DNA of 64,000 nt from Candidatus Omnitrophota bacterium (GCA_014729775.1 WJJJ01000025.1:53790-117789), one strand, 5' to 3'; shown: positions 1-21,681, counted from the first letter of the stretch. Program-made: numbers and translations. Notes: a model not told the origin generated them from the letters alone.

Positions 1-2
1 AC

Positions 3-1742: not shown

Positions 1743-1755
1743 AAAAGGAGTAGCG

Positions 1756-3023: not shown

Positions 3024-3164
3024 ACGGAATGGTCTTCGTTGCAGAAACACTCCGCTGCCGGCTTGTATGTGACAGGCGGGCGTGCCGATTCCTCGGAGAG
3101 CCGTACTAAGAGCATCGGGATCAGCCGCTGAAACCGTACGGATCGGAGAAAGGACGGAGATGGG

Positions 3165-3839: not shown

Positions 3840-3849
3840 TCTGCATCTG

Positions 3850-6012: not shown

Positions 6013-6069
6013 ACGGGCGCGGACGGCGGCACGAGGGGCCGTGGTTTTTCAAAAGACGGATCAGCGTGT

Positions 6070-7419
6070 ATGAGCAAAAAGAAGATTCATGAACGCCGGA
6101 GGTTTCCGCGGGTACGCGCCGCATGGCGCGTTCGGGGTGCCTCGGGCGTGCGCGGCAGTACGGTGGACGTGAGCGAATCCGGCGCGCGGATCGTATTTTC
6201 CCGGCCGCTCTGCGATTCTTCTTTGACCCTGGACCTCGTACTGCCGGACGGAACCGAGGTATTGTCCCTTTGCGTCCGAATCGTCCGCGAAGTCCCCGGC
6301 CTTCGGGAGGAATACGCGTTCCGTCTGATCGATTGTACCGGAACCCAGCGCCGTGCGCTTCGTCGCGCGCTGCTGGCTCAGCAGGTGCACATTGTGCTCA
6401 GTGACATTGACGAGGTGTCTGTCCGGGAACAAATAGAAAAATTTTTTCTCCGGGATCTGCTCGAGTATCTTCATTTGGCCGCGTCCTTCGAAGAGTCACT
6501 GGGGAGGGACTCTGATCCTGCCGGAATCGTTCCGGCGCTTGAACGGGCCCATAACGCGTTGATGCTGAAAGGGTATTGTTTGGAATTGCTTCTTTCCGGT
6601 GAATCCGCTCTGGTGAAACGGGTAAAGGAGTATTTCCAAAAATGGACTGCGCCATGGACGGCGCAAAGCGCGATCATGCGCTGGGCATTGGAAAAACCCC
6701 GGGGAATTCCCGGGGATTATCGGATATTGGAGTACATCTACGAGGATCGCGTTGTTTCTGAGGGGATCGGCCGTTATTTCGATTCGTTGTTCTTACGCAG
6801 TCCCTATGCGGTCGCGATGCGTCTGCGTAAAGACCGGATACTGGCATTGCTGCAGGAATATCTTTCCGCGCTCCCTCCCCTGAAAGAAGCAAAAGTATTA
6901 AATATCGCTTGCGGTTCATCTCGCGAAGTGAGAGAATTAGTAGCTCACGCCGCGGTGCCGTGTAAATTGAAAATTACCTGTATGGACTGGGATTGGGAAG
7001 CGCTCCGTTTTTCGCGGGAGAAATGCGCCGCGCCCGGAAACCGGGTCCGTTGCGGATACGTGAGGGAAGATGTCATTCGGATCGTGCGGAATAAAGTTCC
7101 GCTGTATTCATACGGAGTCCAGGATATTATTTTTTGCGCAGAACTTCCCAATTATCTTCCGGACCGGGTGATGAAAAAGCTGCTGCACCGGGTATATCCG
7201 CTTTTAGAGAGGGGAGGAAAGTTCCTGTTTACCCACAAAAACCGCGAAAAAACTTATCCTCCGTTGTTCCCTGACTGGTTCTGTGACTGGCGGATGATAC
7301 CCCGCACTCCGGAAGAGGTCGTTGAGGTGTGTCACCGTTGCGGCATCCCCCGCGGCGCGCTGAAAGTCGAGCCGGGGGTATTCGGATACGTGTATTTCTT
7401 TACGGTGACCAAGAAATAG
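6070..7419 (+). CDS. PilZ-domain protein fused to a predicted class I SAM-dependent methyltransferase
   Basis: N-terminus 'RRRFPRVRAAWRV...DVSESGARIV' matches the PilZ RxxxR and DxSxxG motifs. C-terminal half has MTase-like motif I 'VLNIACGSSREV', 'ITCMDWD' and motif II-like 'DIIFCAELPNYLPD'. Confidence 0.6.
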   Translation: MSKKKIHERRRFPRVRAAWRVRGASGVRGSTVDVSESGARIVFSRPLCDSSLTLDLVLPDGTEVLSLCVRIVREVPGLREEYAFRLIDCTGTQRRALRRALLAQQVHIVLSDIDEVSVREQIEKFFLRDLLEYLHLAASFEESLGRDSDPAGIVPALERAHNALMLKGYCLELLLSGESALVKRVKEYFQKWTAPWTAQSAIMRWALEKPRGIPGDYRILEYIYEDRVVSEGIGRYFDSLFLRSPYAVAMRLRKDRILALLQEYLSALPPLKEAKVLNIACGSSREVRELVAHAAVPCKLKITCMDWDWEALRFSREKCAAPGNRVRCGYVREDVIRIVRNKVPLYSYGVQDIIFCAELPNYLPDRVMKKLLHRVYPLLERGGKFLFTHKNREKTYPPLFPDWFCDWRMIPRTPEEVVEVCHRCGIPRGALKVEPGVFGYVYFFTVTKK

Positions 7420-7512
7420 AGATTATGGGGATGCACCGGATCCTTGATCCTGGATCCTGGATGCGGAAGGAGAAGAGGAGAAGAGTCAGCGAGAGGAAGG
7501 ACGAGGGAAGCG

Positions 7513-8595
7513 ATGGTCTATCATTTTCTGTTTCCGCTTTCGAAATATTTTTTCGCCTTTAACGTAACCAGATACATCACTTTTCGCGGCGGATGTGCGG
7601 TCGTAACCGCATTCCTGCTGGTTTTTCTGTTCTGGCGGTTTACGATCGCCCGGCTGCAGCGGTTGAAAGTCGTGGAAAAAATTGACATGTACGGCCATAT
7701 CCACTTAGAAACGCTGCACGGTACCAAAAAGGGCACGCCTACCATGGGAGGATTGCTCATTCTCTTTGCCGTTCTGGGATCCACGCTGCTCTGGGCGCGT
7801 CTCGATAATGTGTATATTTGGTTATGCATGGGTATCGCAGGATTTCTGGGGATACTGGGGTTTACCGACGACTACCTCAAGCTGAAAAAAGGGAAAGGCT
7901 TGACCAGGATCCAGAAGTTTTCCGGCCAGATCGCTGTGGGGGTAGCCGTAGGGATCGTGGCGGTGGCCAGCAAGTACATTTCCACTACCTGGCATTTTCC
8001 TTTCGCCAAGGATGTGATTCTCGATCTGGGATATTTTTACTTGTTCTGGGCTGCATTAATGATCGTCGCGTCTTCGAACGCGGTGAATTTTACCGACGGG
8101 CTTGATGGTCTGGCAATCGGCGCGATTGTCATCAACGCGCTCTTCTTCGCACTTTTGGCTTACTTAAGCGGGCATGCGAATTTCGCTTCCTATCTGTTTA
8201 TCCCATATATCCAGGGAACCGGTGAACTGACGGTCCTCTGCCTCGCGGTCGGCGGGGCCGGCCTGGCCTTTCTGTGGTATAATTCTTATCCCGCGCAGGT
8301 ATTTATGGGAGATGTGGGCGCGCTCGCCTTGGGCGGATTGACGGGCGCCGTGGCATTATTTGTAAAAAAAGAGTTTCTGCTTTTTTTGAGCGGCGGGTTA
8401 TTTGTGATCGAAGCGGCATCGGTAATTCTCCAGATTTTATGGGTAAGATACGGCAAACGGCGGTTATTCCGGGCAGCGCCGCTGCACCATCATTTTCAAT
8501 TGCTGGGCTGGAAAGAACCGAAGATTATTATACGATTCTGGATCGTGTCGATTGTGTGCGCGGTACTCGCGCTTCTTACGTTGAAACTGCGTTAG
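7513..8595 (+). CDS. mraY: phospho-N-acetylmuramoyl-pentapeptide transferase
   Basis: ATG at 7513 ('MVYHFLFPLSKYF...'); the ORF-track start at 7444 is an R/E-rich extension. Polytopic; 'NAVNFTDGLDGLA' and 'HHHFQLLGW' MraY signatures. Confidence 0.93.
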   Translation: MVYHFLFPLSKYFFAFNVTRYITFRGGCAVVTAFLLVFLFWRFTIARLQRLKVVEKIDMYGHIHLETLHGTKKGTPTMGGLLILFAVLGSTLLWARLDNVYIWLCMGIAGFLGILGFTDDYLKLKKGKGLTRIQKFSGQIAVGVAVGIVAVASKYISTTWHFPFAKDVILDLGYFYLFWAALMIVASSNAVNFTDGLDGLAIGAIVINALFFALLAYLSGHANFASYLFIPYIQGTGELTVLCLAVGGAGLAFLWYNSYPAQVFMGDVGALALGGLTGAVALFVKKEFLLFLSGGLFVIEAASVILQILWVRYGKRRLFRAAPLHHHFQLLGWKEPKIIIRFWIVSIVCAVLALLTLKLR

Positions 8596-8611
8596 CATTT
8601 CTTCGTCGACG

Positions 8612-9862
8612 ATGAATATTGAATCAATTGAAACCGTGGCGGTCGGCGGGTGGAGCAAAACCGGTATGTCACTCGCAAAGCTCCTGCTTACCTTAGGAAA
8701 AAAAGTGAAGGTCACCGAAGAGCGTGAGCGGGGATGTTTTTCTCCCGCGCTCATTGACGTATTTGCGCGTAAAGGCGTGTGTTTTGAATTCGGCGGCCAT
8801 TCACTCCGTTTTTTGCGTGATGCCGGTCTGCTCATCGTGAGTCCGGGAATCGATTTGCAGCGTTCGGCGCTGTCTGCGCATGCCCGGGAACTGTGTATCC
8901 CGGCCGTGGGGGAGATCGAATTCTGCTTTTGGCTGACGCGGGCCCGCTGTGTCGGTATCACGGGAACCAACGGAAAAAGCACCACCACGTTTCTTACCTA
9001 CCTGGTATTGAAAGAGAAGCGGAAACGGGTGTTTTTGGGAGGTAATATCGGTATCCCGTTTTCTTCGTTCGTGCGCCGGACGAGAAAGAACGATCTCATC
9101 GTGCTCGAATTGAGTTCCTTTCAGCTGGAAACGATTCTCGAGTTCCATCCCTTTGTCGCCGCGTTATTAAACATCGAGCCCGACCATTTGGACCGATATC
9201 CCGGTTATGCCGAATATAAGGCCGCAAAATTCAACATTTTCCGCAATCAGCGTCCAGATGAGTGGGCGGTCGTGAACGAACGCTTCCTGCCGGAAGTAAG
9301 ACAAACGCTGCGTGCCCGCTGCGTTCCTTTTTCCGGAGGGGAAAACGAGAATGTCGACTGTGTCACCCGCATCGCGGGGTTGTTCCAAATTCCCCGGGAA
9401 ACCGTTACCGCGGTAGGCGCCGGGTTTCACGGATTGCCTCACCGGCTTCAAACCGTAAAAAAAATTCAGGGTATCAGCTTTATCAATGATTCCAAGGCGA
9501 CGAATCCCGCGTCCACGCTGTGGGCTCTGCAAAGGGTGAAGAAGAAAGGGAAACGGATCCTTTTGATCGCCGGAGGCAAGGATAAGGGGGTGTCTTACGA
9601 ATGTCTCCGGGATAAATTCAGCGGCGTCAAACAGCTGTTTCTTATTGGTGAATCCGCGCCGAAGATACATAAAGCATTCAGGGATCGGTGTCCTGCCGAG
9701 ATCTGTCCTTCTCTGGAGGAAGCGGTAAAGGAAGCCTACCGGAATGCCCAGCGCGGCGATGTGGTGCTGTTGTCACCGATGTGCGCGAGTTTTGATATGT
9801 TCCGTAATTACACTGAGCGCGGATCGCGGTTTACCGCCGCGGTAAATAAGCTGAGTTCGTGA
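8612..9862 (+). CDS. murD: UDP-N-acetylmuramoylalanine--D-glutamate ligase
   Basis: P-loop 'GITGTNGKSTTT' Mur ligase motif; position after mraY; 416 aa. Confidence 0.92.
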   Translation: MNIESIETVAVGGWSKTGMSLAKLLLTLGKKVKVTEERERGCFSPALIDVFARKGVCFEFGGHSLRFLRDAGLLIVSPGIDLQRSALSAHARELCIPAVGEIEFCFWLTRARCVGITGTNGKSTTTFLTYLVLKEKRKRVFLGGNIGIPFSSFVRRTRKNDLIVLELSSFQLETILEFHPFVAALLNIEPDHLDRYPGYAEYKAAKFNIFRNQRPDEWAVVNERFLPEVRQTLRARCVPFSGGENENVDCVTRIAGLFQIPRETVTAVGAGFHGLPHRLQTVKKIQGISFINDSKATNPASTLWALQRVKKKGKRILLIAGGKDKGVSYECLRDKFSGVKQLFLIGESAPKIHKAFRDRCPAEICPSLEEAVKEAYRNAQRGDVVLLSPMCASFDMFRNYTERGSRFTAAVNKLSS

Positions 9863-9869
9863 TCCGGAA

Positions 9870-11021
9870 ATGAACGGTATATTCGGGAGATGGAAAGAAA
9901 ACATATGGCCGAGTACCTTGCGGCGCCAGCGGCGGGTTCTCTTCCTTTCTGTACTCGGACTGACGTTATTCGGCATACTCATGGTCTATGAAGCATCGAG
10001 CGTGTACGCTTATCATATCGCTTCCGACCCGGCCTATTTTCTCAAAAGACAATTTGTGTTTTTTCTCGCCGGCCTGGCCGCTTTTTTTCTGACGATCTTT
10101 TTCGTCGATCTGGACTGGCTCCGCCAGTACTATAAGGAGATTTTGGGCGCTACGCTGGTGTTACTGGCACTCGTTCTTTTTCTGGGGAAAAGTGCCGGCG
10201 GGGCCAAAAGGTGGCTCTCTCTGGGAATTGTACACGTGCAGCCCAGTGAATTCCTGAAGATAAGTTTCGTGCTTTTCGGGGCGGAGTATTTCCGGAGAAA
10301 GGGAAAGAAGATACGGTCTTTGCGGGAAGGCGTCCTGCCGATGATGGGAGTACTCGCGGTTATTGGGGTGCTTTCGCTGTTGCAGCCCGATCTGGGCACG
10401 GCGATTTTCTGGGTCATATGGGTGTTTTTGATGTTGTTCCTTTACAAGGCGCGGATTCGTCACTTATCGGCCGTGGGAGGGGTGGGAATACTCTTATGCG
10501 CGCTATTAATTTTTGCCTCTCCTTACCGGATGCGGCGGATCGTCTCTTATCTGAATCCGTTTCTTGATCCCCAGGGCGCAGGTTTTCAGCTCATCCAGTC
10601 ACAAATCGCCTACGGGAGCGGCGGATTATTCGGGGTAGGATTGGGTGAAGGGAAACAAAAACTTTTTTTTCTTCCCGCAGCGCACACTGATTTTGTGTAT
10701 TCGATTATCGCGGAAGAGTTCGGCCTGCTGGTAAGTGGAGGGATTCTGTTTCTTTTTTATTTTCTTTTTCATCACATGTACCGGATAGCGGTAAGGTGTC
10801 AGGACCCCTTTCGGCGGGCCGTGTTATGGGGCGTGATCTGCGTGTTTTTCCTTGAAATCATACTGAATATCGGCGTCACCTGCGGAGTCTTTCCCACCAA
10901 GGGAATGGCACTTCCTTTTTTGAGTTACGGGGGCAGTAATCTTATCACCCATTACGTTCTTCTCGGAATTTTTTTCAATGCGACGCGAACGAACACACCA
11001 CATAACTCTCTTCGTATGTGA
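9870..11021 (+). CDS. ftsW: SEDS-family peptidoglycan glycosyltransferase/lipid II flippase FtsW
   Basis: 10-TM SEDS protein; 'GSGGLFGVGLGEG' and 'LPAAHTDFVYS' conserved blocks; dcw position. Confidence 0.9.
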   Translation: MNGIFGRWKENIWPSTLRRQRRVLFLSVLGLTLFGILMVYEASSVYAYHIASDPAYFLKRQFVFFLAGLAAFFLTIFFVDLDWLRQYYKEILGATLVLLALVLFLGKSAGGAKRWLSLGIVHVQPSEFLKISFVLFGAEYFRRKGKKIRSLREGVLPMMGVLAVIGVLSLLQPDLGTAIFWVIWVFLMLFLYKARIRHLSAVGGVGILLCALLIFASPYRMRRIVSYLNPFLDPQGAGFQLIQSQIAYGSGGLFGVGLGEGKQKLFFLPAAHTDFVYSIIAEEFGLLVSGGILFLFYFLFHHMYRIAVRCQDPFRRAVLWGVICVFFLEIILNIGVTCGVFPTKGMALPFLSYGGSNLITHYVLLGIFFNATRTNTPHNSLRM

Positions 11022-12027
11022 ACGGAGCGGGGGACATTTATTTCCCGCGTTGAGTCTGGCCCGGGAAATGCGCCGAAGAGACACGGGGTATCCGGTGTTT
11101 TTCGTCACGTCGGCGCAGTTGAAGCTTTTGATCCGGCGTGAGAATTTCCCCGTGTATGGGCGCGGTTTTCGGCGGCGGAATTTAATCCTGGAATTATGCT
11201 ATCGCTTTTGGGAGGCGCCGCTCCTTTTGTGCCGCTGCCGGCCGGCGAAGGTGTTTGGATTCGGCGGGAGGGACAGTTTTTTTCTCATGCTTTGGGCTGT
11301 CCTGCTGCGCATGGGCCCGGTACTCTATGAACCGAATTCGGTTTTCGGCCGGGCCAATAAGATTCTTTCGCCCTTTATGAAACGCAATTTTTGCGGTTTC
11401 AGGCCGCTTTGCCGGGGACGGCACATTGTTTGTGCCGGGATCCCCGTCCGCGATGATCTTCAAAAGCTCCCGGCGGGGGAGGCGAAAGAAAAGCTTGGTT
11501 TTGGGGCCGATGCGGTGGTGCTTACGGTTTGCGGAGGGAGTCAGGGCTCTCAATTCCTGAATGATCTTATGATGAAACTGGCGCTTGTCATTCCGTCACA
11601 CGTGAAAATCGTACACATCACGGGCCGTCGGGGATATACGGAAACCAGGAAATTTTACGAGAGGACGGCAGTCAGGGCGCGGGTGTTGGATTTTTGTACC
11701 GATATGAGCACGGTATATTCAGCGACGGATGTGATCATATCGCGAAGCGGCGCGATGACCTTAGGGGAAATTATTTATTTTCAAATTCCTCCGGTCTTTA
11801 TCCCGCATCCCGGCGGTTTTTCCCATCAATACCGCAACGCGGATTTTCTCCAGCAGCGAAACGCCGCCGCGGTTTTTCGGCAGAATGAGATCGATTTTCA
11901 GCAGTTTACTGATGCCGTGTCCGAATTATTAACTAACCCTTTGCCGCGGAAGAGGATGGCCGAGCAGCTCGCTGCCGTGCAGACGGCAGTATCTGCGCGG
12001 AAGTTTTATGATCGGGTGTTTGAATGA
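10978..12027 (+). CDS. murG: UDP-GlcNAc--N-acetylmuramyl-(pentapeptide)-PP-undecaprenol GlcNAc transferase
   Basis: GT28 fold; N-terminal G-loop is degenerate ('ERSGGHLFPALSLA' instead of 'GGTGGH'). 44-nt overlap with ftsW. Confidence 0.85.
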   Translation: MRRERTHHITLFVCERSGGHLFPALSLAREMRRRDTGYPVFFVTSAQLKLLIRRENFPVYGRGFRRRNLILELCYRFWEAPLLLCRCRPAKVFGFGGRDSFFLMLWAVLLRMGPVLYEPNSVFGRANKILSPFMKRNFCGFRPLCRGRHIVCAGIPVRDDLQKLPAGEAKEKLGFGADAVVLTVCGGSQGSQFLNDLMMKLALVIPSHVKIVHITGRRGYTETRKFYERTAVRARVLDFCTDMSTVYSATDVIISRSGAMTLGEIIYFQIPPVFIPHPGGFSHQYRNADFLQQRNAAAVFRQNEIDFQQFTDAVSELLTNPLPRKRMAEQLAAVQTAVSARKFYDRVFE

Positions 12028-12851
12028 GAAAAAAAACGACGTGTATCGCATTGGTGGTATGTCTGTGCAGTGCCTGCGGGGGCGCCCCTGTCCTGGCGGA
12101 TGCGCCGCCGATGCCCGATGTGTCTCTTTCCGGCACGGAAGAAGAGTTTTCCCAGAAGCGCTCGGAACATTTCATCGTCTATTACGATCCGGAAGTCAGC
12201 GAAGCGGCCGCGCGCAAAATCAGCGCGATGGCCGAACGGTATTACCGTTCCATTACCCAGGAGTTCCGGCTGATTCGGGAAGATCTTTGGCTGTGGGATA
12301 ACCGGGCGCGAATTTACGTGGCGAAAGACCGGGGAGAATATCTGCGCAGATTCCGCTGTCAGCAGTGGTCGGCGGCCTGCGTGGATTACCGCTCAAAGAA
12401 GATTTTCACTTATCCGTCACAAAATGATTTTTCGGGATTGCTGCTGCATGAGTTAACCCACATTATATTCCGGGAGTACGTCGGACACCGGCGTCTGCCT
12501 TTATGGATCGATGAAGGCGTGGCTACGTACATGGAATACAAAAATTCTCCCTCCGGAGACCGGCTGCTGCGAATGACAGAGGAGATGGTACGGGAAGACG
12601 CCTATATTCCTTTCCGCCGGATCCAGGCGATGTCGCGCCTGAGTAAGTCCGGTCGGGCAGCGCGCCGATTTTATGCGCAGTCCTACAGCATGATCGTGTT
12701 CCTCCGTCAATTTGGAAGTCATTATTTTAAGCCTTTCCTTTCCGCCCTGAAACGGGGCGAATCAGTCGGTGATTCATTAGGAAGTTCCTACCGCTCGTTA
12801 CGGTCGATCGAACAATTTGAAAAAGCATGGAAGAGACATTACCAAAAGTAA
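12024..12851 (+). CDS. secreted/lipoprotein gluzincin-like putative metallopeptidase (Peptidase_MA_2-like)
   Basis: Signal peptide with Cys-rich lipobox-like 'LCSACGG'. 'HELTH' zinc motif followed by 'EGVATYMEY' (third-ligand Glu pattern of Peptidase_MA_2). ATGA overlap with the murG stop. Confidence 0.55.
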   Translation: MRKKTTCIALVVCLCSACGGAPVLADAPPMPDVSLSGTEEEFSQKRSEHFIVYYDPEVSEAAARKISAMAERYYRSITQEFRLIREDLWLWDNRARIYVAKDRGEYLRRFRCQQWSAACVDYRSKKIFTYPSQNDFSGLLLHELTHIIFREYVGHRRLPLWIDEGVATYMEYKNSPSGDRLLRMTEEMVREDAYIPFRRIQAMSRLSKSGRAARRFYAQSYSMIVFLRQFGSHYFKPFLSALKRGESVGDSLGSSYRSLRSIEQFEKAWKRHYQK

Positions 12852-14203
12852 CCAATGTGCATCTGGTTGGGATAGGCGGGATCGGCATGAGCGCGCTCGC
12901 TTTTCTCCTACGCGAAAAGGGGATCGGCGTTTCAGGCTCGGATCTCCGGGACAACCCTACGGTCAACGAATTGCGGAAATCCGGGATCAAGGTGTATATC
13001 GGACACCGCCCTGAACACATTACGCATGCGGATCTGGTGTGTATTTCCTCTGCCGTCGGAGTTTCCAATCCAGAAGTCCGCGCGGCGCGTTCCCGGGGAG
13101 TTCCGGTCTGGCCGCGGGCGCGGATGTTAGCCGCGCTTGCCGCCGGATGTAAATCGATCTGCGTGAGCGGAGCTCACGGAAAGACGACGACCACCTCGCT
13201 CCTGGGGTTTGTGCTTTCCCAGCTCGGGTTTGCGCCCACAGTGTGTATCGGCGGGGTGCCTCTCAATTTTTCACGGCATGCGTGGTGGGGGAAGGATTAT
13301 TTCGTGATCGAAGCGGACGAAAGCGACGGGAGCTTTCTTTACTACACGCCGGAGTTTTCGGTTCTCACCAACATCGATACCGAGCATCTCGAATATTACG
13401 GTACGCCCGCCCGCCTGCGGGAGGCATTCAAAAAGTTTGCCGCCAATACCAAACACACGGTGGTCGCCTGCGCCGAGGATCCGCAGGTGCGCGCCGTGAC
13501 CGAATCCGTAACACATTGCTGGTACGGGTTCGATTCTTCTTTACCTGTACACGCCCGGGATGTGCGCTGTGAAGAAAGGGGCATGCGTTTTACCGCGTCG
13601 GTACATTCTCAGGAATTCGACGTATTTCTTCCCCTGGTGGGAGCACATAACGTGCTGAACGCGCTCGCGGTCTTTTCGGTGTGTTCGTTGCTTTGCGCCG
13701 CGCCCCGGAAAGTGACTCATGCCGTTCGTGAATTCAAAGGAACTCATCGCCGCTTTCAGTTCAAAGCGCAGGTCGGCGGGGTGACCTTTATCGATGATTA
13801 TGCCCATCATCCCACCGAGATCCGGGCGGTACTGCAGGCACTGAAATATCTTCCGGCGAAACGCCGCTGGGTAATATTTGAACCGCACCGGTTTACCAGG
13901 GTGAAACGTCTCGCCGACGAATTCGCGGAATGCTTTGCCGGTGCCGATACTCTTATCCTTACCGATATTTATTCGGCCGCCGAAGCCCCTCTTCCTGGAG
14001 CGACGGTAGAGGACCTTTTCCGGCGGATCCGGCGCGGATATGACGGGCAGTTGTACTATGTCCCTAAACATGAACTGGCGGGGATGCTCGGCGGGCGGGT
14101 ACGGTCCGGCGATGTGATCCTCGGTTTGGGGGCGGGGGAGATCAGCGAATTGATGGAGAAGATCATAGATGAATTCCGATTACGGCACGATACTGCTGGA
14201 TGA
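12827..14203 (+). CDS. murC: UDP-N-acetylmuramate--L-alanine ligase
   Basis: N-terminal 'VHLVGIGGIGMSALA' and 'GAHGKTTTTS' P-loop; 458 aa. Confidence 0.93.
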   Translation: MEETLPKVTNVHLVGIGGIGMSALAFLLREKGIGVSGSDLRDNPTVNELRKSGIKVYIGHRPEHITHADLVCISSAVGVSNPEVRAARSRGVPVWPRARMLAALAAGCKSICVSGAHGKTTTTSLLGFVLSQLGFAPTVCIGGVPLNFSRHAWWGKDYFVIEADESDGSFLYYTPEFSVLTNIDTEHLEYYGTPARLREAFKKFAANTKHTVVACAEDPQVRAVTESVTHCWYGFDSSLPVHARDVRCEERGMRFTASVHSQEFDVFLPLVGAHNVLNALAVFSVCSLLCAAPRKVTHAVREFKGTHRRFQFKAQVGGVTFIDDYAHHPTEIRAVLQALKYLPAKRRWVIFEPHRFTRVKRLADEFAECFAGADTLILTDIYSAAEAPLPGATVEDLFRRIRRGYDGQLYYVPKHELAGMLGGRVRSGDVILGLGAGEISELMEKIIDEFRLRHDTAG

Positions 14204-15029
14204 ACCTCTTGCTTCCTATACGACGCTGAAAATAGGAGGGCCGTCGGCCCGTCTTTTTTTTGCGGCTTCCGAGGAGGAATTGAGCAAGATCCTTACCAGC
14301 TTCAGGGAAGAACCGCTGATATTGGGCGCGGGTTCCAATCTTTTGATCAGCGACCGCGGTACGCACAGACCGGTGATCAAACTTACCGGTCATATGCGGA
14401 CAGTTTCCCGGCAGGGGAATATTATCAGCGCGGGAGCGGGCGTCAGATTGCCCGAACTGCTGAGATTTTGCATCGCGCATCGGTTAACCGGCTTGGAACC
14501 GTTCGCCGGAATCCCGGGATCACTCGGAGGGATGGTCAAAATGAACGCGTCGGCGCACGGGTGCGCGGTGAGCGATTATGTGACGCAGATCGAAGCTTTT
14601 ACCCGCCGGGGCAGGCACGAGGTCATCCCCGCGGAACGGCTCGATTTTCGCCGGCGTCATTGCGCGCTTAGCGGAGCGGTTATCACCCGGGTGAAACTGT
14701 GTGTGCGTCCCGCGAATAAGGATATCCGCGGACGAATCAGGGCGGTTGTGCAACGGCGTCTGCGTACGCAGGATTATCGTTATCCTTCCTGCGGCTGTGT
14801 ATTTCGCAATCCTTCCACCGCGCCGGCGGGAAAGCTTATCGATGAGTGCGGATTAAAAGGACTTCGCCGCGGAGGGGCATTGATTTCTCCGGTCCACGCA
14901 AATTTTATCGTCAACACGGGCGGTGCCCGTTATGCTGATGTTGATTTTCTCATCAGTCAGATCCGTCGCAAAGTGTATGACCGGTTCCGTGTCCGGCTAA
15001 AAGAGGAAGTCACTCGTTGGTCCTCGTGA
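14169..15029 (+). CDS. murB: UDP-N-acetylenolpyruvoylglucosamine reductase
   Basis: 'LASYTTLKIGGPS' FAD-binding N-terminus; 'GSNLLISD'; 286 aa. Confidence 0.9.
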   Translation: MNSDYGTILLDEPLASYTTLKIGGPSARLFFAASEEELSKILTSFREEPLILGAGSNLLISDRGTHRPVIKLTGHMRTVSRQGNIISAGAGVRLPELLRFCIAHRLTGLEPFAGIPGSLGGMVKMNASAHGCAVSDYVTQIEAFTRRGRHEVIPAERLDFRRRHCALSGAVITRVKLCVRPANKDIRGRIRAVVQRRLRTQDYRYPSCGCVFRNPSTAPAGKLIDECGLKGLRRGGALISPVHANFIVNTGGARYADVDFLISQIRRKVYDRFRVRLKEEVTRWSS

Positions 15030-15110
15030 AATCCGCGTGTTTACGGATATCTCTGAAAAGAAGTGAGGTTTCTCCTGTAAACCCCGGAAAAATTTGTTAT
15101 AATAACAACG

Positions 15111-16100
15111 ATGCCTGAACGCAAATCGAAGTCCGGTCGCGGCCAATGCCGGGTCGGGGTATTAGGAGGAGGAATATCTTCGGAAAGGGAGATCTCACTG
15201 CTTTCAGCCCGCTCCGTGACCGATGCGTTGAATCGGTGCAGGATCCCGGCAGTAATGATCGACGTTGATTCTTCGGATCCTGAGCGAATGCGAAACCTGC
15301 TCCGGAAGGACGGGATCGGTTTCGTGTTTATCGCTCTCCACGGAGAATACGGGGAGGACGGGCAGGTTCAGCGGCTTCTTGGTCAGGAGAAAATGAGGTA
15401 TACCGGATCCTCTCCCTCCGCCAGCGCCCGGGCAATGGATAAGGTGTGCGCGAAGGAAGTGTTTCAACAGCACGGCATTTATACGCCGCGGGGACGGGTA
15501 TGCGGAGACGCTGATGATATCGGCGTGTATCCCGAATTCCCCTGCGTGGTGAAGCCGTCCCGGTCCGGTTCCAGTATCGGAGTGGAAATAGTGGAAGAAC
15601 CCCGCGGCCTTCGTCCTGCAGTGGAGCGGGCGGCCGCGATTCAGAAACCGGTGCTGATCGAAGAATACGTTCCGGGCCGCGAAGTGACCGTGGGGATTTT
15701 GGGTAACCAGGCATTATCCGTCATCGAAATAATTCCCCGGCAGCGATACTATGATTACCGGGCGAAGTATTGCGATGAAGCAACGCGTTTCCGCCACGCA
15801 ACGGACCTGGAACCTGAGCGCTACCGGGAGATCCAGGATATCGGGCTGAAGGCACATCGCGTGCTGGGATGCCGGGGATTTTCACGGGTGGACGTCCGCC
15901 TCACCAACGAAAAAATACCTTACGTCCTGGAAGTGAATTCTATTCCGGGATTTACTTCTCATAGTTTATTGCCGTTGTCGGCAAAATATTCCGGTATTGA
16001 TTTTGATGAGCTGGTAGTACAGATACTCAACCAAGCAGGATATGGCAAGGAAACGTCGCAAACGAAAATCTCAGCGAAAAAAGCTCAGAATACCTCCTAA
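15111..16100 (+). CDS. ddl: D-alanine--D-alanine ligase
   Basis: ATP-grasp; 'FIALHGEYGEDGQVQ', 'EEYVPGREVTVGIL' and 'LEVNSIPG' motifs. Confidence 0.9.
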   Translation: MPERKSKSGRGQCRVGVLGGGISSEREISLLSARSVTDALNRCRIPAVMIDVDSSDPERMRNLLRKDGIGFVFIALHGEYGEDGQVQRLLGQEKMRYTGSSPSASARAMDKVCAKEVFQQHGIYTPRGRVCGDADDIGVYPEFPCVVKPSRSGSSIGVEIVEEPRGLRPAVERAAAIQKPVLIEEYVPGREVTVGILGNQALSVIEIIPRQRYYDYRAKYCDEATRFRHATDLEPERYREIQDIGLKAHRVLGCRGFSRVDVRLTNEKIPYVLEVNSIPGFTSHSLLPLSAKYSGIDFDELVVQILNQAGYGKETSQTKISAKKAQNTS

Positions 16101-16800
16101 AATATTTTTGTGGACGGGGATCGGCATAGGCATTCTCGCGACCATTATCGTGATCGGCCGCGCCGTATACAAATCCGATGCGTTCCTCATCACCAGAGTG
16201 GTAGTCGATGAGCCTCTGGACAAAAGAGTGGAGAGGGAACTTCTCGGCCGGTCTTTATTCCGGATTCCTCTCCAGGAGATCCAGCGCGATCTCATGGAGG
16301 AGTATCCGGAACTCAAGGCGATTCGGATCGTCAAGCAGTTCCCTTCGACGGTGAGCATACAGGTCCGGCCGAGGAAACCGGTTGCACAGTGGAAGACTAC
16401 CCGTTATTATCTGATGGGACGCGAAGGCGTAGTCCTGGATTCCGGACGCGATGAGCCCTATTCGGAGTATGTGGTGATTGAGACGAACGGCTACCGGGGA
16501 AGGATCTCGAAAGGAATGCAGATCGATGATCGCGCACTGCAGGGGGCGCTTTCACTCGCAGAAATCATTCAGTCGAGTTCATTCCTTCGTGAGTATACCG
16601 TGCGTACCATCAACGCTTCTCAGCTTCCGGCATTATCGTTCTCGCTCGGCGGGATCAATGTGATGGTAGGCGAAGGAGACTGGAGAAAAAAAATCGCTCT
16701 GCTGCAGACTCTTCTCGAAGAAAAAATACGGGAAAATCTTTCCGCGGTGAAGTATATCGATTTACGCTACCAGAAGGTATATGTTGGTTACAAACGATGA
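16042..16800 (+). CDS. ftsQ: cell division protein FtsQ (POTRA-containing)
   Basis: Basic N-terminus, single TM ('IFLWTGIGIGILATIIVIG'), POTRA-like region; located after ddl. Confidence 0.75.
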   Translation: MARKRRKRKSQRKKLRIPPKIFLWTGIGIGILATIIVIGRAVYKSDAFLITRVVVDEPLDKRVERELLGRSLFRIPLQEIQRDLMEEYPELKAIRIVKQFPSTVSIQVRPRKPVAQWKTTRYYLMGREGVVLDSGRDEPYSEYVVIETNGYRGRISKGMQIDDRALQGALSLAEIIQSSSFLREYTVRTINASQLPALSFSLGGINVMVGEGDWRKKIALLQTLLEEKIRENLSAVKYIDLRYQKVYVGYKR

Positions 16801-16815
16801 GAGCCCGCTAGTACG

Positions 16816-17988
16816 ATGTTTCGGCTGACGAATGGCGTATGCGGAATGGAAGTCGCTGACGACAGGACTTTTTTCTCCTATGCATCGGCGTCGGGAAAAA
16901 ATATGCATGTGATTGAGGAATCATGGGTGCCCGTTCCTTTTTCCGGGGACGATCTTGTCGCACATTTCAAAGAGAACTTCAATCTTTTCGCTGCCGAATT
17001 ACAGCACAAAGAAAAAAAACACCGGTTAAAGATCCGGCGTCTTTTTGTCAATCTGCCCGCCCGGTTTACGCGTGTTTCCACTGTCGAACACACCGTTTCT
17101 TTTCGTCGTGAAAAGAAAATTTCGATCCGTGATGTGCTTTCCGCCAAACAGTACGTGGAAGAATCCGCCTCGGAGTGGGGCGAATGCTGTCTGCATCATG
17201 TTGTCGAGCGTTACTGGGTAAACGGCGGGGAGAGTTTTTCTCCGCCGGTGGGAACATGGAGCGGGAAAATAAGACTGCGTTGTCGTCTTATTTGGGTGAG
17301 AAACAATGTGTGGGCGGAGCTCAATGAAATCGCGACGCACTTTCATACTCGTCTCGGCGGAGTGATTGCCGAGGAAATGAGCGTGTTGTCTTCAAGCGGA
17401 GACGCGAGCGGAATACTCCCTGAAAAAGCCGTGCTCAAAATCGGTTATCATGATACCGTCTTTCTCTACTGGCGGAAAAAAAAGGTGATCTCCGAAAGGA
17501 GGTTTCCGTTCGGACTGCGGGGAATTTTTTGCCGGATGGCGGAACGGTTCAGTCTGTCTCTGCCGGTCGCGGAACAGGTTTTTCACCGTTATTTTTCTTT
17601 GAAGCCCGAAGTCGTTCGCTCTTCGCGCCGGCTCGGGGAAGTAAGCGTGAAGAGCGGTGATGCCTACGTCAATCTCAGTGTAGGCGCGGTCAACCGCTTC
17701 CTGCGCGAAGTCATTCACCGGGAGTTGGAGCGGATCCTCGATGAATGTATTCCGGAGATCGGCGGAGATCGCACGTCAGTGACGGTAACAGGCAGACTGA
17801 ACGGGCGGGAAGGATGGGCCCGTTTTTTGAGAGAGCACTTCGCAAGGCCGGTGCTGGCGGCTTCCGCCCGGGAAAGCGCGGCTTTCGGCGCGTCCCGGTA
17901 CGGATTATTTCCTTGTTTAGATCGTGAAACCGTGCCTCAAAAAAAATTTTTTCGGCGCATATCGGAACTGTACCGTGAATACTTTTAA
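16816..17988 (+). CDS. degenerate FtsA-like actin-fold protein (position of ftsA)
   Basis: 390 aa at the ftsA slot. C-terminal 'SVTVTGRLNGREGWARFLREHFARPV' resembles the FtsA phosphate-2/connect-2 'VLTGGGA...' block, but the N-terminal phosphate-1 'DIGT' motif is not recognisable. Confidence 0.45.
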   Translation: MFRLTNGVCGMEVADDRTFFSYASASGKNMHVIEESWVPVPFSGDDLVAHFKENFNLFAAELQHKEKKHRLKIRRLFVNLPARFTRVSTVEHTVSFRREKKISIRDVLSAKQYVEESASEWGECCLHHVVERYWVNGGESFSPPVGTWSGKIRLRCRLIWVRNNVWAELNEIATHFHTRLGGVIAEEMSVLSSSGDASGILPEKAVLKIGYHDTVFLYWRKKKVISERRFPFGLRGIFCRMAERFSLSLPVAEQVFHRYFSLKPEVVRSSRRLGEVSVKSGDAYVNLSVGAVNRFLREVIHRELERILDECIPEIGGDRTSVTVTGRLNGREGWARFLREHFARPVLAASARESAAFGASRYGLFPCLDRETVPQKKFFRRISELYREYF

Positions 17989-18005: not shown

Positions 18006-19937
18006 ATGAAATACCTCGAACAGATTGAACAATTTCTGAAAATGCTGAAAATCGGACTCACCCACGCGAGCATGTACTTTACCGAGCATCCGATCTATCA
18101 AAAAACCGTTCGGGAAGTGCACAGGGAGCTTCAGCAGGTACTGCGTGAAAAGAACCCTCTTCTCATCGGAGTCTCGCCCGATGCGCTGATCATCGACAAT
18201 CATGAATGGAAGAATTCCCGATTAACCGAGGATCTGGCGGTTTTTTTTCATACCCGCATGGTGAGCCGGATCGAATTCGTCGACGGAATAACAGAACAGG
18301 AGCTCCACACCTTTCTCTCGTATGTCTCCCTTTCGGCGCAGGAAATTTTAAGCCTGGGCGGCCTCGGAAAAATCTTCGAGGAAAAACAAGTCGCTCACGT
18401 CCATGTGTCTGATCTCGATTATTCTCACCTGCTGAAAAATGCGGGAGTGTACCATAAAGATATTTGGAAATATCTGCTCCGCAGCGCGGCCCGGAGCCAG
18501 AAGGACGAAGAAATGAAGGCGCTGATCGATAATTTTGAAACCGTCGTGAGTTCCCTCGGAAAGGAATTATTTCAAGAAGCAGAGTGCCGGGCTCAGCTCC
18601 GGGTTTTTTTGACGCACTTAAGCAAGAGTCAAAAAAGTACGTTAAAACAGTGCAGTAAGACCATCCTTCAGTATCTTTTGAGAGACCGCGATGCGGTTGA
18701 GGGTAAAATCCCGGTTGAGGATCTCCGAAATTTTCTCACCGTATTGTCGGATGCTGAATCAGCGGATATCCTGTGGGATGAGATCGCAAAAGGTCCTGAT
18801 TTTGATGCGAGTGCTTTTTCGTTCTTTCTGACCCTCTTGAGTTCGAAAAATCACGAGATTATCGCGGACAAAGTGCTGCACCGTTTGGATTCGGTGTCGA
18901 CCGAGAAAAAGCATCAAATGAAGTCCAGACTCGAAGATTTGTTTTCAACCGCGTTTTCTTCCGGCCCGCGGGAAGCCAGCCAGGTGTATCAGGAAGCGTT
19001 GTCCGCGATGTTTGAGGCGATGTCCGATGAGGGGCGATGGGTGTTTGACCGCGAGAATGCGCGCAAGAACTACCGGTATATTCTGCTGGCGCTGCTCGAT
19101 GAGAAAAAAAAATCCGAACAGATGCGGCGGATCGCGGAGAAGATTTCCGCGGAGACGATACACGCATTCGAAATTCGCGACCGCGGATATCTGGCGGCCT
19201 GTTTCTCTCTGCTCAAAAGGAAAGACGATTCCTTTCGGTCTGAACTGCAGGAAGGGCTGCGCGGGCTCGATGAATTCCTGGAAACAAAAGTGCTCCAAGG
19301 AGAGTATCCTTCCGGAATGGAACGCTATCTTTCCCGGCTAAAAAAAAGTTCCTATGGTCCGCGGACATACATTCAGAAAATCACCCAGGCTTCTTCTGTG
19401 TCCCCCGCGCTGCTCGATGCGTTTCTCCGCTTTTATCCGGGCGAGACCGGGAGACTGCTGGAAGAAGTGAAGACTCGGCAGGCACAGGCTTCTTACATGA
19501 CTTCGCTGGCGGAATCGGCCGCGGCGGCGGATTCCCCTTCGAGCCTGCGTATGCTGTGCGGGCTTTACCGCGATGCGCGGCTCTATCTGCGGCGGGTGAT
19601 TCTCCGGGTGATGCGCCGAATGAAACAATACGATATTGATTTTCTCTTTGAGGTTCTTTCTGGTTCAGAAGTTTTTCTCAAACGGGAGGCGCTGGCGATA
19701 CTTGCAGGTATACCCGGCGCGCGGGCACGCGCCGCGGAGATTTTATTTCGCGTCCCGAATCCGTTTGGTATCCGGGAGAATCTCCTCAGTTCCCATATCG
19801 CGCTCGCCGATGAATTTTCGCTTTCCGAGGCCCGGCCTTACCTGGAAAAATTATCGGGCCAGCTGTGGTTCTGGCATAATAAAACGAAACGGCACGCGCA
19901 GGAAGTGCTGCGTAAATGGCATGAAAAATCAGATTGA
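18006..19937 (+). CDS. hypothetical protein: HD-GYP-associated N-terminal (DUF3391-like) domain + long alpha-helical/HEAT-like C-terminus, no catalytic domain
   Basis: First ~130 aa align with the N-terminus of the downstream HD-GYP protein ('MYFTEHPIYQKTVREVHRELQQVL' vs 'MYTPEHKRFIEAVDGAYMELQKIL'; 'RIEFVDGITEQELHTF' vs 'KITFVRGVDKDELASA'). The remainder is helical, with 'ALAILAGIPGARARAAEILF' HEAT-like repeats. Confidence 0.6.
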   Translation: MKYLEQIEQFLKMLKIGLTHASMYFTEHPIYQKTVREVHRELQQVLREKNPLLIGVSPDALIIDNHEWKNSRLTEDLAVFFHTRMVSRIEFVDGITEQELHTFLSYVSLSAQEILSLGGLGKIFEEKQVAHVHVSDLDYSHLLKNAGVYHKDIWKYLLRSAARSQKDEEMKALIDNFETVVSSLGKELFQEAECRAQLRVFLTHLSKSQKSTLKQCSKTILQYLLRDRDAVEGKIPVEDLRNFLTVLSDAESADILWDEIAKGPDFDASAFSFFLTLLSSKNHEIIADKVLHRLDSVSTEKKHQMKSRLEDLFSTAFSSGPREASQVYQEALSAMFEAMSDEGRWVFDRENARKNYRYILLALLDEKKKSEQMRRIAEKISAETIHAFEIRDRGYLAACFSLLKRKDDSFRSELQEGLRGLDEFLETKVLQGEYPSGMERYLSRLKKSSYGPRTYIQKITQASSVSPALLDAFLRFYPGETGRLLEEVKTRQAQASYMTSLAESAAAADSPSSLRMLCGLYRDARLYLRRVILRVMRRMKQYDIDFLFEVLSGSEVFLKREALAILAGIPGARARAAEILFRVPNPFGIRENLLSSHIALADEFSLSEARPYLEKLSGQLWFWHNKTKRHAQEVLRKWHEKSD

Positions 19938-21243: not shown

Positions 21244-21258
21244 AACCCGGAGAAAAGG

Positions 21259-21287
21259 TTTGCCGGGCGTACTAAATATGATATATT
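21259..21287 (+). promoter_or_regulatory. sigma70-like promoter TTTGCC-N17-TATATT placing TSS at or next to the RR start codon (leaderless candidate)
   Basis: 'tttgcc' 21259-64, 17-nt spacer, 'tatatt' 21282-87; the RR ATG is at 21295. Confidence 0.3.
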
Positions 21288-21294
21288 GTATACC

Positions 21295-21663: not shown

Positions 21664-21681
21664 CTTCAATTCGAACCCCAG

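What the first reader, a model, noticed from the sequence alone, without database searches (positions are those of the whole stretch)
7513..17988. Truncated, rearranged dcw cluster: starts at mraY, ends with a degenerate FtsA-like protein, no ftsZ
Canonical order is mraZ-mraW-ftsL-ftsI-murE-murF-mraY-murD-ftsW-murG-murC-murB-ddl-ftsQ-ftsA-ftsZ. Upstream of mraY here are signalling genes (HK, PilZ-MTase), not murF/murE/ftsI. Downstream of ftsQ is a 390-aa protein that keeps only a C-terminal FtsA-like block ('VTVTGRLNGREGW...'). It lacks a recognisable phosphate-1 motif, so ATP binding is questionable. No tubulin-like (GGGTGTG) FtsZ follows; the c-di-GMP cluster does. Either ftsZ/ftsA proper are elsewhere in the genome, or this lineage divides with a reduced machinery, as in the FtsZ-less Planctomycetes and Chlamydiae.
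Basis: partly seen in the sequence, partly recalled or inferred. Interest (0 to 1): 0.5.

Follow-up and report, generated by a model that had tools for sequence, protein, structure and literature searches.

The report
Diverged FtsA ending an ftsZ-less dcw cluster
In this uncultured Omnitrophota bacterium the cell-wall and division gene cluster ends with a full-length but strongly diverged FtsA whose ATP-binding motifs have decayed, and no ftsZ follows it here or in 29 related loci, so this group may divide without the usual FtsZ ring while keeping FtsA.

Summary
The gene calls hold: mraY-murD-ftsW-murG-(zinc-peptidase lipoprotein)-murC-murB-ddl-ftsQ, then a 390-aa ORF. Signalling genes lie upstream. 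No FtsZ is present anywhere in the 64 kb window.

The 390-aa protein is not a C-terminal remnant. It belongs to a conserved Omnitrophota family (80 clusters at 50% identity). The family profile matches solved FtsA (E=1.5e-16). The AlphaFold model (pLDDT 92.5) matches FtsA best (TM 0.68-0.70, against PilM 0.51). It keeps an FtsA-type C-terminal amphipathic helix ending in an invariant YF.

All three nucleotide-binding motifs are degenerate. The 1C subdomain and the C-terminal helix are the best-conserved parts. This suggests a membrane-bound scaffold, not an ATPase.

The break upstream of mraY is local: three relatives have murF directly upstream. The lack of ftsZ after ftsA is shared by 26 same-family loci. 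It is also shared by two more distant lineages, one probably and one possibly Omnitrophota, whose FtsA keeps largely intact ATP motifs.

A published survey found no FtsZ in 4 of 5 Omnitrophica genomes. I could not search any whole genome, so "FtsZ-less" stays probable, not shown. Verdict: new variant of a known kind, moderate interest.

The parts
6070..7419 (+). PilZ-methyltransferase fusion. It marks the upstream boundary of the cluster in this genome and is not a dcw gene.
   Evidence: Pfam PilZ plus Methyltransf_25. Relatives L011, L019 and L021 have murF at this position instead.
7513..8595 (+). mraY
   Evidence: TIGR00445 mraY, 327 bits, above its cutoff. ATG at 7513 follows a purine-rich stretch.
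8612..9862 (+). murD
   Evidence: Pfam MurD-like_N, Mur_ligase_M and Mur_ligase_C
9870..11021 (+). ftsW
   Evidence: TIGR02614 ftsW, 368 bits, above its cutoff
10978..12027 (+). murG
   Evidence: Pfam Glyco_transf_28 N- and C-terminal domains
12024..12851 (+). Peptidase_MA_2 zinc-metallopeptidase, a predicted lipoprotein, inserted between murG and murC
   Evidence: Pfam PF13485, E=1e-9. Sequence shows a signal/lipobox (LCSAC) and an HELTH motif. The gene is present at this position in every related locus that covers the murG-murC junction, and in L029 but not in L026/L027.
12827..14203 (+). murC
   Evidence: Pfam Mur_ligase, Mur_ligase_M and Mur_ligase_C
14169..15029 (+). murB
   Evidence: Pfam FAD_binding_4 plus MurB_C
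15111..16100 (+). ddl
   Evidence: Pfam Dala_Dala_lig_N and Dala_Dala_lig_C
16042..16800 (+). ftsQ
   Evidence: Pfam POTRA_1 plus FtsQ_DivIB_C, both above their cutoffs. One N-terminal transmembrane segment is visible in the translation.
16816..17988 (+). Diverged FtsA ortholog (390 aa). It has an FtsA fold with the 1C subdomain, degenerate ATP-binding motifs, and a C-terminal amphipathic helix (residues 378-389) ending in YREYF.
   Evidence: Family profile versus PDB FtsA, E=1.5e-16. AF2 pLDDT 92.5. Foldseek top hits are all FtsA, TM 0.68-0.70. Motif analysis. NCBI record MBD3246487.1 is named 'hypothetical protein GF333_05690'.
18006..19937 (+). Orphan 643-aa alpha-helical protein in the position where ftsZ would be. 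It belongs to the downstream HD-GYP module, not to the divisome.
   Evidence: No Pfam or PDB hit. Its N-terminal ~110 aa are homologous to the N-terminus of the next gene (BLASTP E=1e-9). Where the flank is covered, it always occurs with HD-GYP1. The pair is absent together in 6 related loci.
19921..21243 (+). HD-GYP protein 1 (c-di-GMP phosphodiesterase type). It overlaps the preceding gene by 17 nt.
   Evidence: Pfam HD_5 and HD. The start was set by alignment to the L001 ortholog.
21682..22860 (+). HD-GYP protein 2
   Evidence: Pfam HD_5, E=5e-38

Best explanation
This is a genuine dcw operon of an Omnitrophota bacterium. It is locally broken upstream of mraY.

Its last division gene is a true but strongly diverged FtsA ortholog. 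The protein keeps the FtsA architecture: an actin-like fold with the 1C/SHS2 subdomain, and a C-terminal amphipathic membrane-targeting helix.

It has lost the consensus of all three nucleotide-binding motifs (phosphate-1, phosphate-2, adenosine). It therefore most likely acts as a nucleotide-independent, membrane-anchored scaffold. Through its well-conserved 1C subdomain it would connect FtsQ, FtsW and the peptidoglycan synthases at the division site.

ftsZ was removed from its canonical place after ftsA before this family diverged. It is probably absent from these genomes altogether.

What is shown: the fold, the family, the motif decay, the conserved gene order, and the absence of ftsZ from the window and from 29 related loci. 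What is inferred: loss of ATP binding, the scaffold role, and genome-wide absence of FtsZ.
For: Identity of the protein:
- Exhaustive HMMER finds 80 cluster representatives, most of them full length at about 380 aa (a quarter are shorter fragments) and 19-35% identical.
- The family profile hits solved FtsA at E=1.5e-16. It aligns to S. aureus FtsA over residues 4-338 versus 24-363. PilM scores only about 2e-3.
- The AF2 model has pLDDT 92.5.
- Foldseek ranks 19 FtsA chains first (TM 0.61-0.70). PilM follows at 0.51 and MreB at 0.44.
- The C-terminus KKFFRRISELYREYF is a predicted helix. Y389 and F390 are invariant. It resembles the E. coli FtsA membrane-targeting sequence GSWIKRLNSWLRKEF.

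Motif decay across the family:
- Phosphate-1: DxGxxK becomes (D/E)x(D/E)xDK. The window protein reads MEVADDR.
- Phosphate-2: the Asp becomes N or K. The window protein has K208.
- Adenosine: GG becomes GR.
- 1C and the C-terminal helix are the most conserved segments. The phosphate-2 segment is the least conserved.

Gene order:
- 25 related loci share the order up to ftsQ-ftsA, as far as each contig reaches. They include the complete chromosomes CP070807.1 and CP070797.1. Another family member, L028, lies on a 1.8 kb contig that shows no neighbours. None contains FtsZ.
- Two more distant lineages have FtsA with largely canonical ATP motifs and the same YxEYF tail (P0074 in L029; P0075 in L026/L027). 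They also lack ftsZ after ftsA.

Literature:
- FtsZ was not detected in 4 of 5 Omnitrophica genomes. FtsA hits were found in 4 of 5 (PMC8178401, supplementary file 4; figure legend).
Against: - No whole genome could be searched, so ftsZ may simply lie elsewhere.
- One Omnitrophica-labelled genome (OLB16) has adjacent ftsA-ftsZ.
- A 2025 paper describes dcw genes as highly conserved in Omnitrophota, without gene-level detail (PMC12283558).
- Loss of ATP binding is inferred from motifs only. Some Pfam-recognised FtsA sequences also deviate in phosphate-2 (DIGY in P0078, DLGY in P0080).
- The protein fails the curated thresholds: TIGR01174 27 bits against a cutoff of 175.85, and no Pfam FtsA hit.
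- A retained FtsA with a membrane anchor is itself most simply explained by FtsZ still being present.
Confidence: 0.6

Rival explanations
1. Simple split cluster. ftsZ, and also ftsI, murE and murF, are encoded elsewhere in the genome. The diverged FtsA still tethers FtsZ to the membrane, and division is conventional.
For: - The cluster is visibly fragmenting in this clade. The window breaks at mraY, while L011, L019 and L021 keep murF-mraY.
- CP070807.1 (L006) keeps only ddl-ftsQ-ftsA together.
- FtsA with an intact membrane-targeting helix is retained under selection. Its best-known role is anchoring FtsZ (established knowledge).
- OLB16 has FtsZ.
- PMC12283558 calls dcw genes highly conserved in Omnitrophota.
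Against: - ftsA-ftsZ adjacency is among the most conserved gene pairs in bacteria (own knowledge). It is absent in all 29 related loci, spanning three divergent FtsA lineages.
- In L029, ftsA is followed directly by yggS/ylmE-proC...ileS-lspA-rluD. This is the order that normally follows ftsZ in Firmicutes (own knowledge), as if ftsZ alone had been excised.
- HMM surveys found no FtsZ in 4 of 5 Omnitrophica assemblies.
Confidence: 0.32
2. The 390-aa ORF is not a divisome protein. It would be a decaying relic of ftsA, or an actin-like protein recruited to another job such as a PilM-like pilus platform or part of the downstream c-di-GMP module.
For: - It is below all curated family thresholds.
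- Its ATP motifs are degenerate.
- It is followed by signalling genes, not by division genes.
- The family profile also hits PilM weakly, at about 2e-3.
Against: - Full-length ORFs of about 380 aa persist across very deep divergence (19-35% identity, 80 clusters). Strongly conserved surfaces and a pLDDT of 92.5 also argue against a pseudogene.
- Fold and profile are clearly closer to FtsA than to PilM.
- Wherever the upstream flank is covered, the gene directly follows ftsQ. The downstream signalling module is dispensable: it is absent in L002, L008, L013, L014, L020 and L021.
- No pilNOPQ genes are nearby.
Confidence: 0.06

Closest known systems
FtsA (E. coli, T. maritima, S. aureus; PDB 7q6d, 4a2a, 3wqt)
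   Same: - Same fold, including the 1C/SHS2 subdomain in place of actin 1B
- Same position directly after ftsQ
- Same kind of C-terminal amphipathic membrane-targeting helix with a ...(K/R)E(Y)F end

   Different: - Only 13-16% identity to solved FtsA in the Foldseek alignments
- Fails the TIGR01174 and Pfam thresholds
- Phosphate-1, phosphate-2 and adenosine motifs are degenerate (G to D/E, D to N/K, GG to GR)
- No ftsZ next to it
FtsA of more distant relatives (P0072, P0074, P0075; loci L028, L029, L026). L029 shares the Peptidase_MA insertion with this clade, so it is probably Omnitrophota. The organisms of all three are unnamed.
   Same: - Same YxEYF C-terminus
- P0074 and P0075 sit in the same dcw context and also lack ftsZ downstream. 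L029 also has the Peptidase_MA insertion.
- P0072 lies on a 1.8 kb contig with no visible context
   Different: - They keep DLGSxK and the phosphate-2 Asp. P0072 and P0075 keep GG; P0074 has GE
- P0074 and P0075 are recognised by Pfam FtsA and SHS2_FTSA. P0072 passes only SHS2_FTSA
- They look like the less-derived state
PilM (type IV pilus platform, PDB 5eox, 2ych)
   Same: FtsA-like actin fold with a 1C-type subdomain. Weak profile match (about 2e-3).
   Different: - Clearly poorer structural match (TM 0.51 against 0.68-0.70)
- PilM lacks a C-terminal membrane helix and binds PilN instead (own knowledge)
- No pil genes nearby
FtsZ-less division in Chlamydiae and Planctomycetes
   Same: Omnitrophota is usually placed in the PVC superphylum. 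ftsZ is not found where expected. The peptidoglycan synthesis genes ftsW and ftsQ are retained.
   Different: Those phyla are reported to lack FtsA as well (PMC8178401). Here FtsA is retained and conserved. Genome-wide absence of FtsZ is not demonstrated here.
Canonical dcw cluster (mraZ...ftsA-ftsZ)
   Same: The order mraY-murD-ftsW-murG-murC-murB-ddl-ftsQ-ftsA is colinear with the canonical cluster.
   Different: - The 5' part (mraZ to murF) is detached in this genome
- A zinc-peptidase gene is inserted between murG and murC
- ftsZ is missing
- An HD-GYP signalling module follows

Membership tests
FtsA | Actin/ASKHA fold with the 1C (SHS2) subdomain inserted in domain 1 | tested here: met
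   AF2 pLDDT 92.5. Foldseek ranks FtsA chains 1-19 (TM 0.61-0.70, E down to 7e-23), ahead of PilM (0.51) and MreB (0.44). SHS2_FTSA is hit weakly at residues 88-154.
FtsA | Sequence membership by curated models (TIGR01174, Pfam PF14450 and PF02491) | tested here: not met
   TIGR01174 scores 27.1 bits against a cutoff of 175.85. There is no Pfam hit at threshold; SHS2_FTSA has E=0.089. Homology is nevertheless significant at profile level: family profile versus PDB FtsA gives E=1.5e-16.
FtsA | Gene located directly downstream of ftsQ in the dcw cluster | tested here: met
   ftsQ is 16042-16800 and the ORF starts at 16816. The arrangement is the same in every related locus that covers the upstream flank.
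FtsA | C-terminal amphipathic membrane-targeting helix after a flexible linker | tested here: met
   Predicted helix at 378-389 follows a lower-confidence linker. The pattern (R/K)(I/L)xx(I/V)YKEYF is conserved, with Y389 and F390 invariant. It aligns with the E. coli membrane-targeting sequence. Membrane binding itself was not tested.
FtsA | Intact nucleotide-binding motifs (phosphate-1 DxGxxK, phosphate-2 DxGGGT, adenosine GG) | tested here: not met
   The window protein has MEVADDR, LKIGYHDT and TGRLNGREGW. Family-wide, the phosphate-1 Gly is D/E in 42 of 54 sequences. The phosphate-2 Asp is N in 17, K in 7 and still D in 11 of 54. The second adenosine Gly is Arg in 38 of 54.
FtsA | Binds the FtsZ C-terminal peptide through subdomain 2B; ftsZ is usually adjacent | not testable with these tools
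   ftsZ is not adjacent in the window or in 29 related loci. Binding cannot be assessed. No complex prediction was available, and no FtsZ sequence from this group was found to test.
dcw cluster | Colinear block of mur, fts and mraY genes | tested here: met
   mraY-murD-ftsW-murG-murC-murB-ddl-ftsQ-ftsA lie on one strand with short gaps or overlaps.
dcw cluster | Complete 5' part (mraZ, rsmH, ftsL, ftsI, murE, murF) and 3' ftsZ | tested here: not met
   None of these genes is in the 64 kb window. murF precedes mraY in L011, L019 and L021, so the 5' break is local.
FtsZ-less PVC-type division | No tubulin/FtsZ-family gene anywhere in a complete genome | not testable with these tools
Only literature is available: FtsZ is recorded as not found in 4 of 5 Omnitrophica assemblies.
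FtsZ-less PVC-type division | FtsA lost together with FtsZ, as in Planctomycetes and Chlamydiae | tested here: not met
   An FtsA ortholog is present and conserved. PMC8178401 states that FtsA is absent in Planctomycetes and Chlamydiae.

The most novel reading that the evidence does not exclude
A large Omnitrophota clade has no FtsZ at all. It divides with a peptidoglycan-based machinery (FtsQ, FtsW and partners) organised by a membrane-anchored FtsA that no longer binds nucleotide. This would be an actin-family scaffold that outlived its tubulin partner, and a third kind of FtsZ-independent division in the PVC group, distinct from the FtsA-less Chlamydiae and Planctomycetes. The related lineages with still-intact ATP motifs and no adjacent ftsZ would then show the order of events: ftsZ was lost first, and the ATP site decayed afterwards.
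Probability: 0.35. Interest if true: 0.75.

Novelty: new variant of a known kind. Interest (0 to 1): 0.55.

Why it matters
How bacteria divide without FtsZ is still an open question. So far it has been studied only in lineages that lost FtsA as well. If this clade truly lacks FtsZ but keeps a conserved, membrane-anchored, nucleotide-site-degenerate FtsA next to ftsQ, it offers a natural test of what FtsA does on its own, such as recruiting or activating the septal peptidoglycan synthases.

It also gives a concrete family to add to annotation. These proteins are currently named 'hypothetical protein' and are invisible to word-based searches and to the Pfam and TIGRFAM thresholds.

If FtsZ turns out to be encoded elsewhere, the finding reduces to an unusually diverged FtsA in a fragmenting dcw cluster.

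Tried and rejected
- Word-index homology search with the 390-aa protein found only itself. Exhaustive HMMER was needed.
- The search for related loci with the 54-sequence alignment failed for lack of a conserved stretch. A 13-sequence alignment worked.
- Looking up the window's own contig by the NCBI protein failed, because it is not on record. The 133 kb contig could therefore not be extended beyond the window.
- The 643-aa protein in the 'ftsZ position' was considered as a possible FtsZ substitute and rejected. It has no GTPase or cytoskeletal signal. Its N-terminus is shared with the adjacent HD-GYP protein. It is absent from six loci that keep the FtsA-like gene.
A homolog search with its alignment returned nothing. 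The single-sequence model was too poor to use (pLDDT 49.7), so no fold search was run on it.
- A search of the big protein collection for an Omnitrophota FtsZ was considered and not run. The candidate list appears capped (8000 candidates), so close relatives of any available FtsZ query would probably crowd out distant ones. One protein search was left unused.
- PilM and MreB identities were rejected on fold and profile scores.
- A pseudogene reading was rejected on family-wide conservation.
- The Velamenicoccus genome paper (PMC9004380) is not held.
- Supplements of PMC12283558 hold nothing on Omnitrophota.
- The 2026 complete-genome preprint does not mention FtsZ or FtsA.

Full report
**Source and gene calls**

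The window comes from a Candidatus Omnitrophota MAG. The ORF at 16816-17988 is identical over 380 residues to MBD3246487.1, 'hypothetical protein GF333_05690', on a 133 kb contig.

- mraY (7513-8595)
- murD (8612-9862)
- ftsW (9870-11021)
- murG (10978-12027)
- murC (12827-14203)
- murB (14169-15029)
- ddl (15111-16100)
- ftsQ (16042-16800)

It is a Peptidase_MA_2 zinc metallopeptidase with a lipoprotein signal and an HELTH motif (12024-12851).

Upstream lie two histidine kinases, a response regulator, an acyltransferase, a HAD hydrolase and a PilZ-methyltransferase.

The window contains no FtsZ:
- No tubulin signature in six frames.
- Best tblastn hit with E. coli FtsZ is E=16. The query was verified against PDB.
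- Pfam annotation of all larger ORFs finds no FtsZ, FtsI, MurE, MurF, Min or Zap protein.

**The 390-aa protein is a full-length FtsA ortholog**

Alone, the protein falls below every curated threshold. TIGR01174 scores 27 bits against a cutoff of 176. SHS2_FTSA has E=0.089. There is no significant PDB sequence hit.

An exhaustive HMMER scan of 1.8 billion representatives finds 80 clusters. Most are full length at about 380 aa, and identities range from 19% to 35%.

A profile of 54 members matches solved FtsA proteins at E=1.5e-16. It aligns with S. aureus FtsA over residues 4-338 versus 24-363. PilM reaches only about 2e-3.

The AlphaFold model built on this alignment is confident (pLDDT 92.5, pTM 0.89). 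Foldseek against the PDB ranks 19 FtsA chains first (TM 0.61-0.70, E down to 7e-23). PilM follows at TM about 0.51 and MreB at about 0.44.

The statement that only a C-terminal block is FtsA-like is wrong.

The family alignment and the model favour the ATG at 16816 over the NCBI start at Met11. The NCBI start would remove the first beta-strand.

**Nucleotide site and conservation pattern**

I aligned the family with E. coli FtsA and with Pfam-recognised FtsA sequences. Across the family:
- Phosphate-1: DxG(T/S)xK reads (D/E)x(D/E)xDK. The glycine is Asp or Glu in 42 of 54 members. The window has MEVADDR.
- Phosphate-2: the aspartate is Asn in 17, Lys in 7 and still Asp in 11 of 54 members. The window has Lys208.
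- Adenosine motif: GG is G-R in 38 of 54 members. The window has TGRLNGREGW.

The segment holding phosphate-2 is the least conserved part of the protein. The 1C/SHS2 subdomain and the C-terminal helix are the most conserved.

The C-terminus (KKFFRRISELYREYF) is a predicted helix after a lower-confidence linker. Y389 and F390 are invariant. It aligns with the E. coli FtsA membrane-targeting sequence GSWIKRLNSWLRKEF.

The pattern combines decayed catalytic motifs with a conserved protein-interaction subdomain and membrane anchor. That is what one expects of a scaffold that no longer depends on nucleotide. Loss of ATP binding is an inference from motifs, not a measurement.

**Comparison with relatives**

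I gathered 25 related loci with visible gene context. Four are metagenome contigs found by exact protein look-up. Twenty-one are species-representative genomes. They include two complete chromosomes, CP070807.1 and CP070797.1.

Seventeen of the 21 genome records are titled Omnitrophota. Three carry a 'Planctomycetia' title on third-party assemblies, and one is titled only 'bacterium'.

As far as each contig reaches, the loci show the same order: mraY-murD-ftsW-murG-peptidase-murC-murB-ddl-ftsQ-FtsA-like. This is usually followed by the 643-aa gene, one or two HD-GYP genes, an MGDG-synthase-like glycosyltransferase and lpxL. None contains FtsZ.

The break upstream of mraY is specific to this genome. 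In L011, L019 and L021 the C-terminus of murF lies directly upstream of mraY. CP070807.1 is broken elsewhere and keeps only ddl-ftsQ-ftsA together. L002 has an IS110 transposase after the FtsA-like gene. The cluster is evidently fragmenting in this clade.

Three weaker hits (P0072, P0074, P0075) are informative. They share the YxEYF tail. They keep DLGSxK and the phosphate-2 Asp. P0072 and P0075 keep GG, while P0074 has GE. P0074 and P0075 are recognised by Pfam FtsA and SHS2_FTSA; P0072 passes only SHS2_FTSA. P0072 lies on a 1.8 kb contig that shows no context.

P0074 and P0075 sit in fuller clusters (murE/murF-mraY...ftsQ-ftsA). The P0074 locus also has the peptidase insertion. ftsA is again not followed by ftsZ:
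- In L026/L027 a UvrD/AddB pair follows.
- In L029 yggS(ylmE)-proC...ileS-dksA-like-lspA-rluD follows. From my own knowledge, this is the order that follows ftsZ in Firmicutes, as if ftsZ alone had been removed.

The organisms of L026 and L029 are not named. Their proteins are 25-53% identical to the window's. The shared peptidase insertion suggests that L029 is related. This points to ftsZ leaving the cluster before the ATP site of FtsA decayed.

**What follows the FtsA-like gene**

The 643-aa ORF (18006-19937) starts 17 nt after the FtsA-like gene. It matches nothing in Pfam, NCBIfam or the PDB.

Its N-terminal ~110 residues are homologous to the N-terminus of the next gene, an HD-GYP protein that overlaps it by 17 nt (19921-21243). 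Where the flank is covered, the two genes are present or absent together in relatives. Both are missing from six loci that keep the FtsA-like gene.

It is therefore part of a c-di-GMP signalling module, not a replacement for FtsZ. A single-sequence structure model was uninformative (pLDDT 49.7).

**Literature**

- A 2016 review detected FtsZ in only one of three Omnitrophica genomes (OLB16). It left open whether the absence was real (PMC5147048).
- Pende et al. 2021 list Omnitrophica among the PVC phyla without FtsZ. Their table shows FtsZ 'NA' in 4 of 5 Omnitrophica assemblies and FtsA hits in 4 of 5. [quoted passage not shown]
- A 2025 paper calls dcw genes highly conserved in Omnitrophota, without gene-level detail (PMC12283558).
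- A 2026 preprint on 176 complete Omnitrophota genomes reports a full peptidoglycan pathway. It does not mention FtsZ or FtsA.

The FtsZ-absent, FtsA-present pattern is thus already visible in a supplementary table. I found no description of the diverged family or its decayed nucleotide site.

**Interpretation**

Most likely (about 0.6) this is a diverged FtsA that works as a nucleotide-independent, membrane-bound scaffold in a lineage that lost ftsZ from the cluster and probably from the genome.

The main rival (about 0.3) is a plain split cluster with ftsZ elsewhere and FtsA still anchoring it. A conserved membrane-anchored FtsA is in itself easiest to explain that way.

A relic or non-division actin-like protein is unlikely (about 0.06), given family-wide conservation, the fold and the fixed position after ftsQ.

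**Limits**

- No complete genome could be searched for FtsZ. The window's own contig is not in the look-up index.
- ATP binding, membrane binding and partners are untested.
- The taxonomic breadth of the family is a lower bound, because it was found with a single peptide pattern.

Noticed in passing
window 12024-12851; also L001, L002, L005-L012, L015, L019-L024, L029: A Peptidase_MA_2 zinc-metallopeptidase lipoprotein (lipobox LCSAC, HELTH motif) is inserted between murG and murC. It is present in every related locus that covers this junction. It is duplicated on both sides of murG in L005, L007, L015 and L024. Its role in the cell-wall cluster is unknown.
   Followed up: partly
window 18006-19937 and 19921-21243: An orphan 643-aa alpha-helical protein has no Pfam or PDB match. 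Its N-terminal ~110 aa are homologous to the N-terminus of the overlapping HD-GYP gene (E=1e-9). The pair is gained or lost together in relatives. This looks like an undescribed N-terminal domain of an HD-GYP module.
   Followed up: partly
L005 11220, L016 3250, L017 1506: In three relatives the ortholog of the 643-aa gene has no in-frame ATG, GTG or TTG between the upstream stop and the conserved N-terminus. The only plausible start is a CTG; in L005 it lies just after a GGAGG.
   Followed up: no
L029 10001-18208 (GCA_018400015.1, JAGYNB010000002.1): ftsA is followed by yggS/ylmE, proC, a PNP_UDP_1 gene, ileS, a dksA-type zinc finger, lspA and rluD. This is the gene order that follows ftsZ in Firmicutes (own knowledge), with ftsZ alone missing.
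   Followed up: partly
window 16816 versus 16846: The NCBI annotation of GF333_05690 starts at Met11 (380 aa). The family alignment and the AF2 model (first strand at residues 5-13) support the upstream ATG at 16816 (390 aa).
   Followed up: yes
L006 (CP070807.1) 1-8300; L002 11548-12768: The cluster is broken differently in relatives. In the complete chromosome CP070807.1 only ddl-ftsQ-ftsA stay together. In L002 an IS110-family transposase sits right after the FtsA-like gene.
   Followed up: partly
window 41575-42891: A single 438-aa ORF carries both an LpxC domain and a FabA/FabZ-like dehydratase domain. It lies within an lpxD-(lpxC-fabZ)-lpxA-lpxI block next to bamA and ompH.
   Followed up: no
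window 7420-7512: The 93-nt spacer between the PilZ-methyltransferase gene and mraY contains a short direct repeat (ggatcctggatcctggat) and a purine-rich run. It is possibly the rearrangement junction or a regulatory site.
   Followed up: no
window 15-1742, 3799-6012, 6070-7419, 19921-22860: The dcw genes are flanked on both sides by signalling genes. These are two GAF histidine kinases (one with a clear 7TM domain), a PilZ-methyltransferase fusion and two HD-GYP proteins. The downstream HD-GYP genes are syntenic in most relatives.
   Followed up: partly
L008, L019, L023, L025: Four third-party MAG records titled 'uncultured Planctomycetia bacterium' carry the same Omnitrophota-type cluster and FtsA family. 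Their taxonomic label is probably wrong.
   Followed up: no
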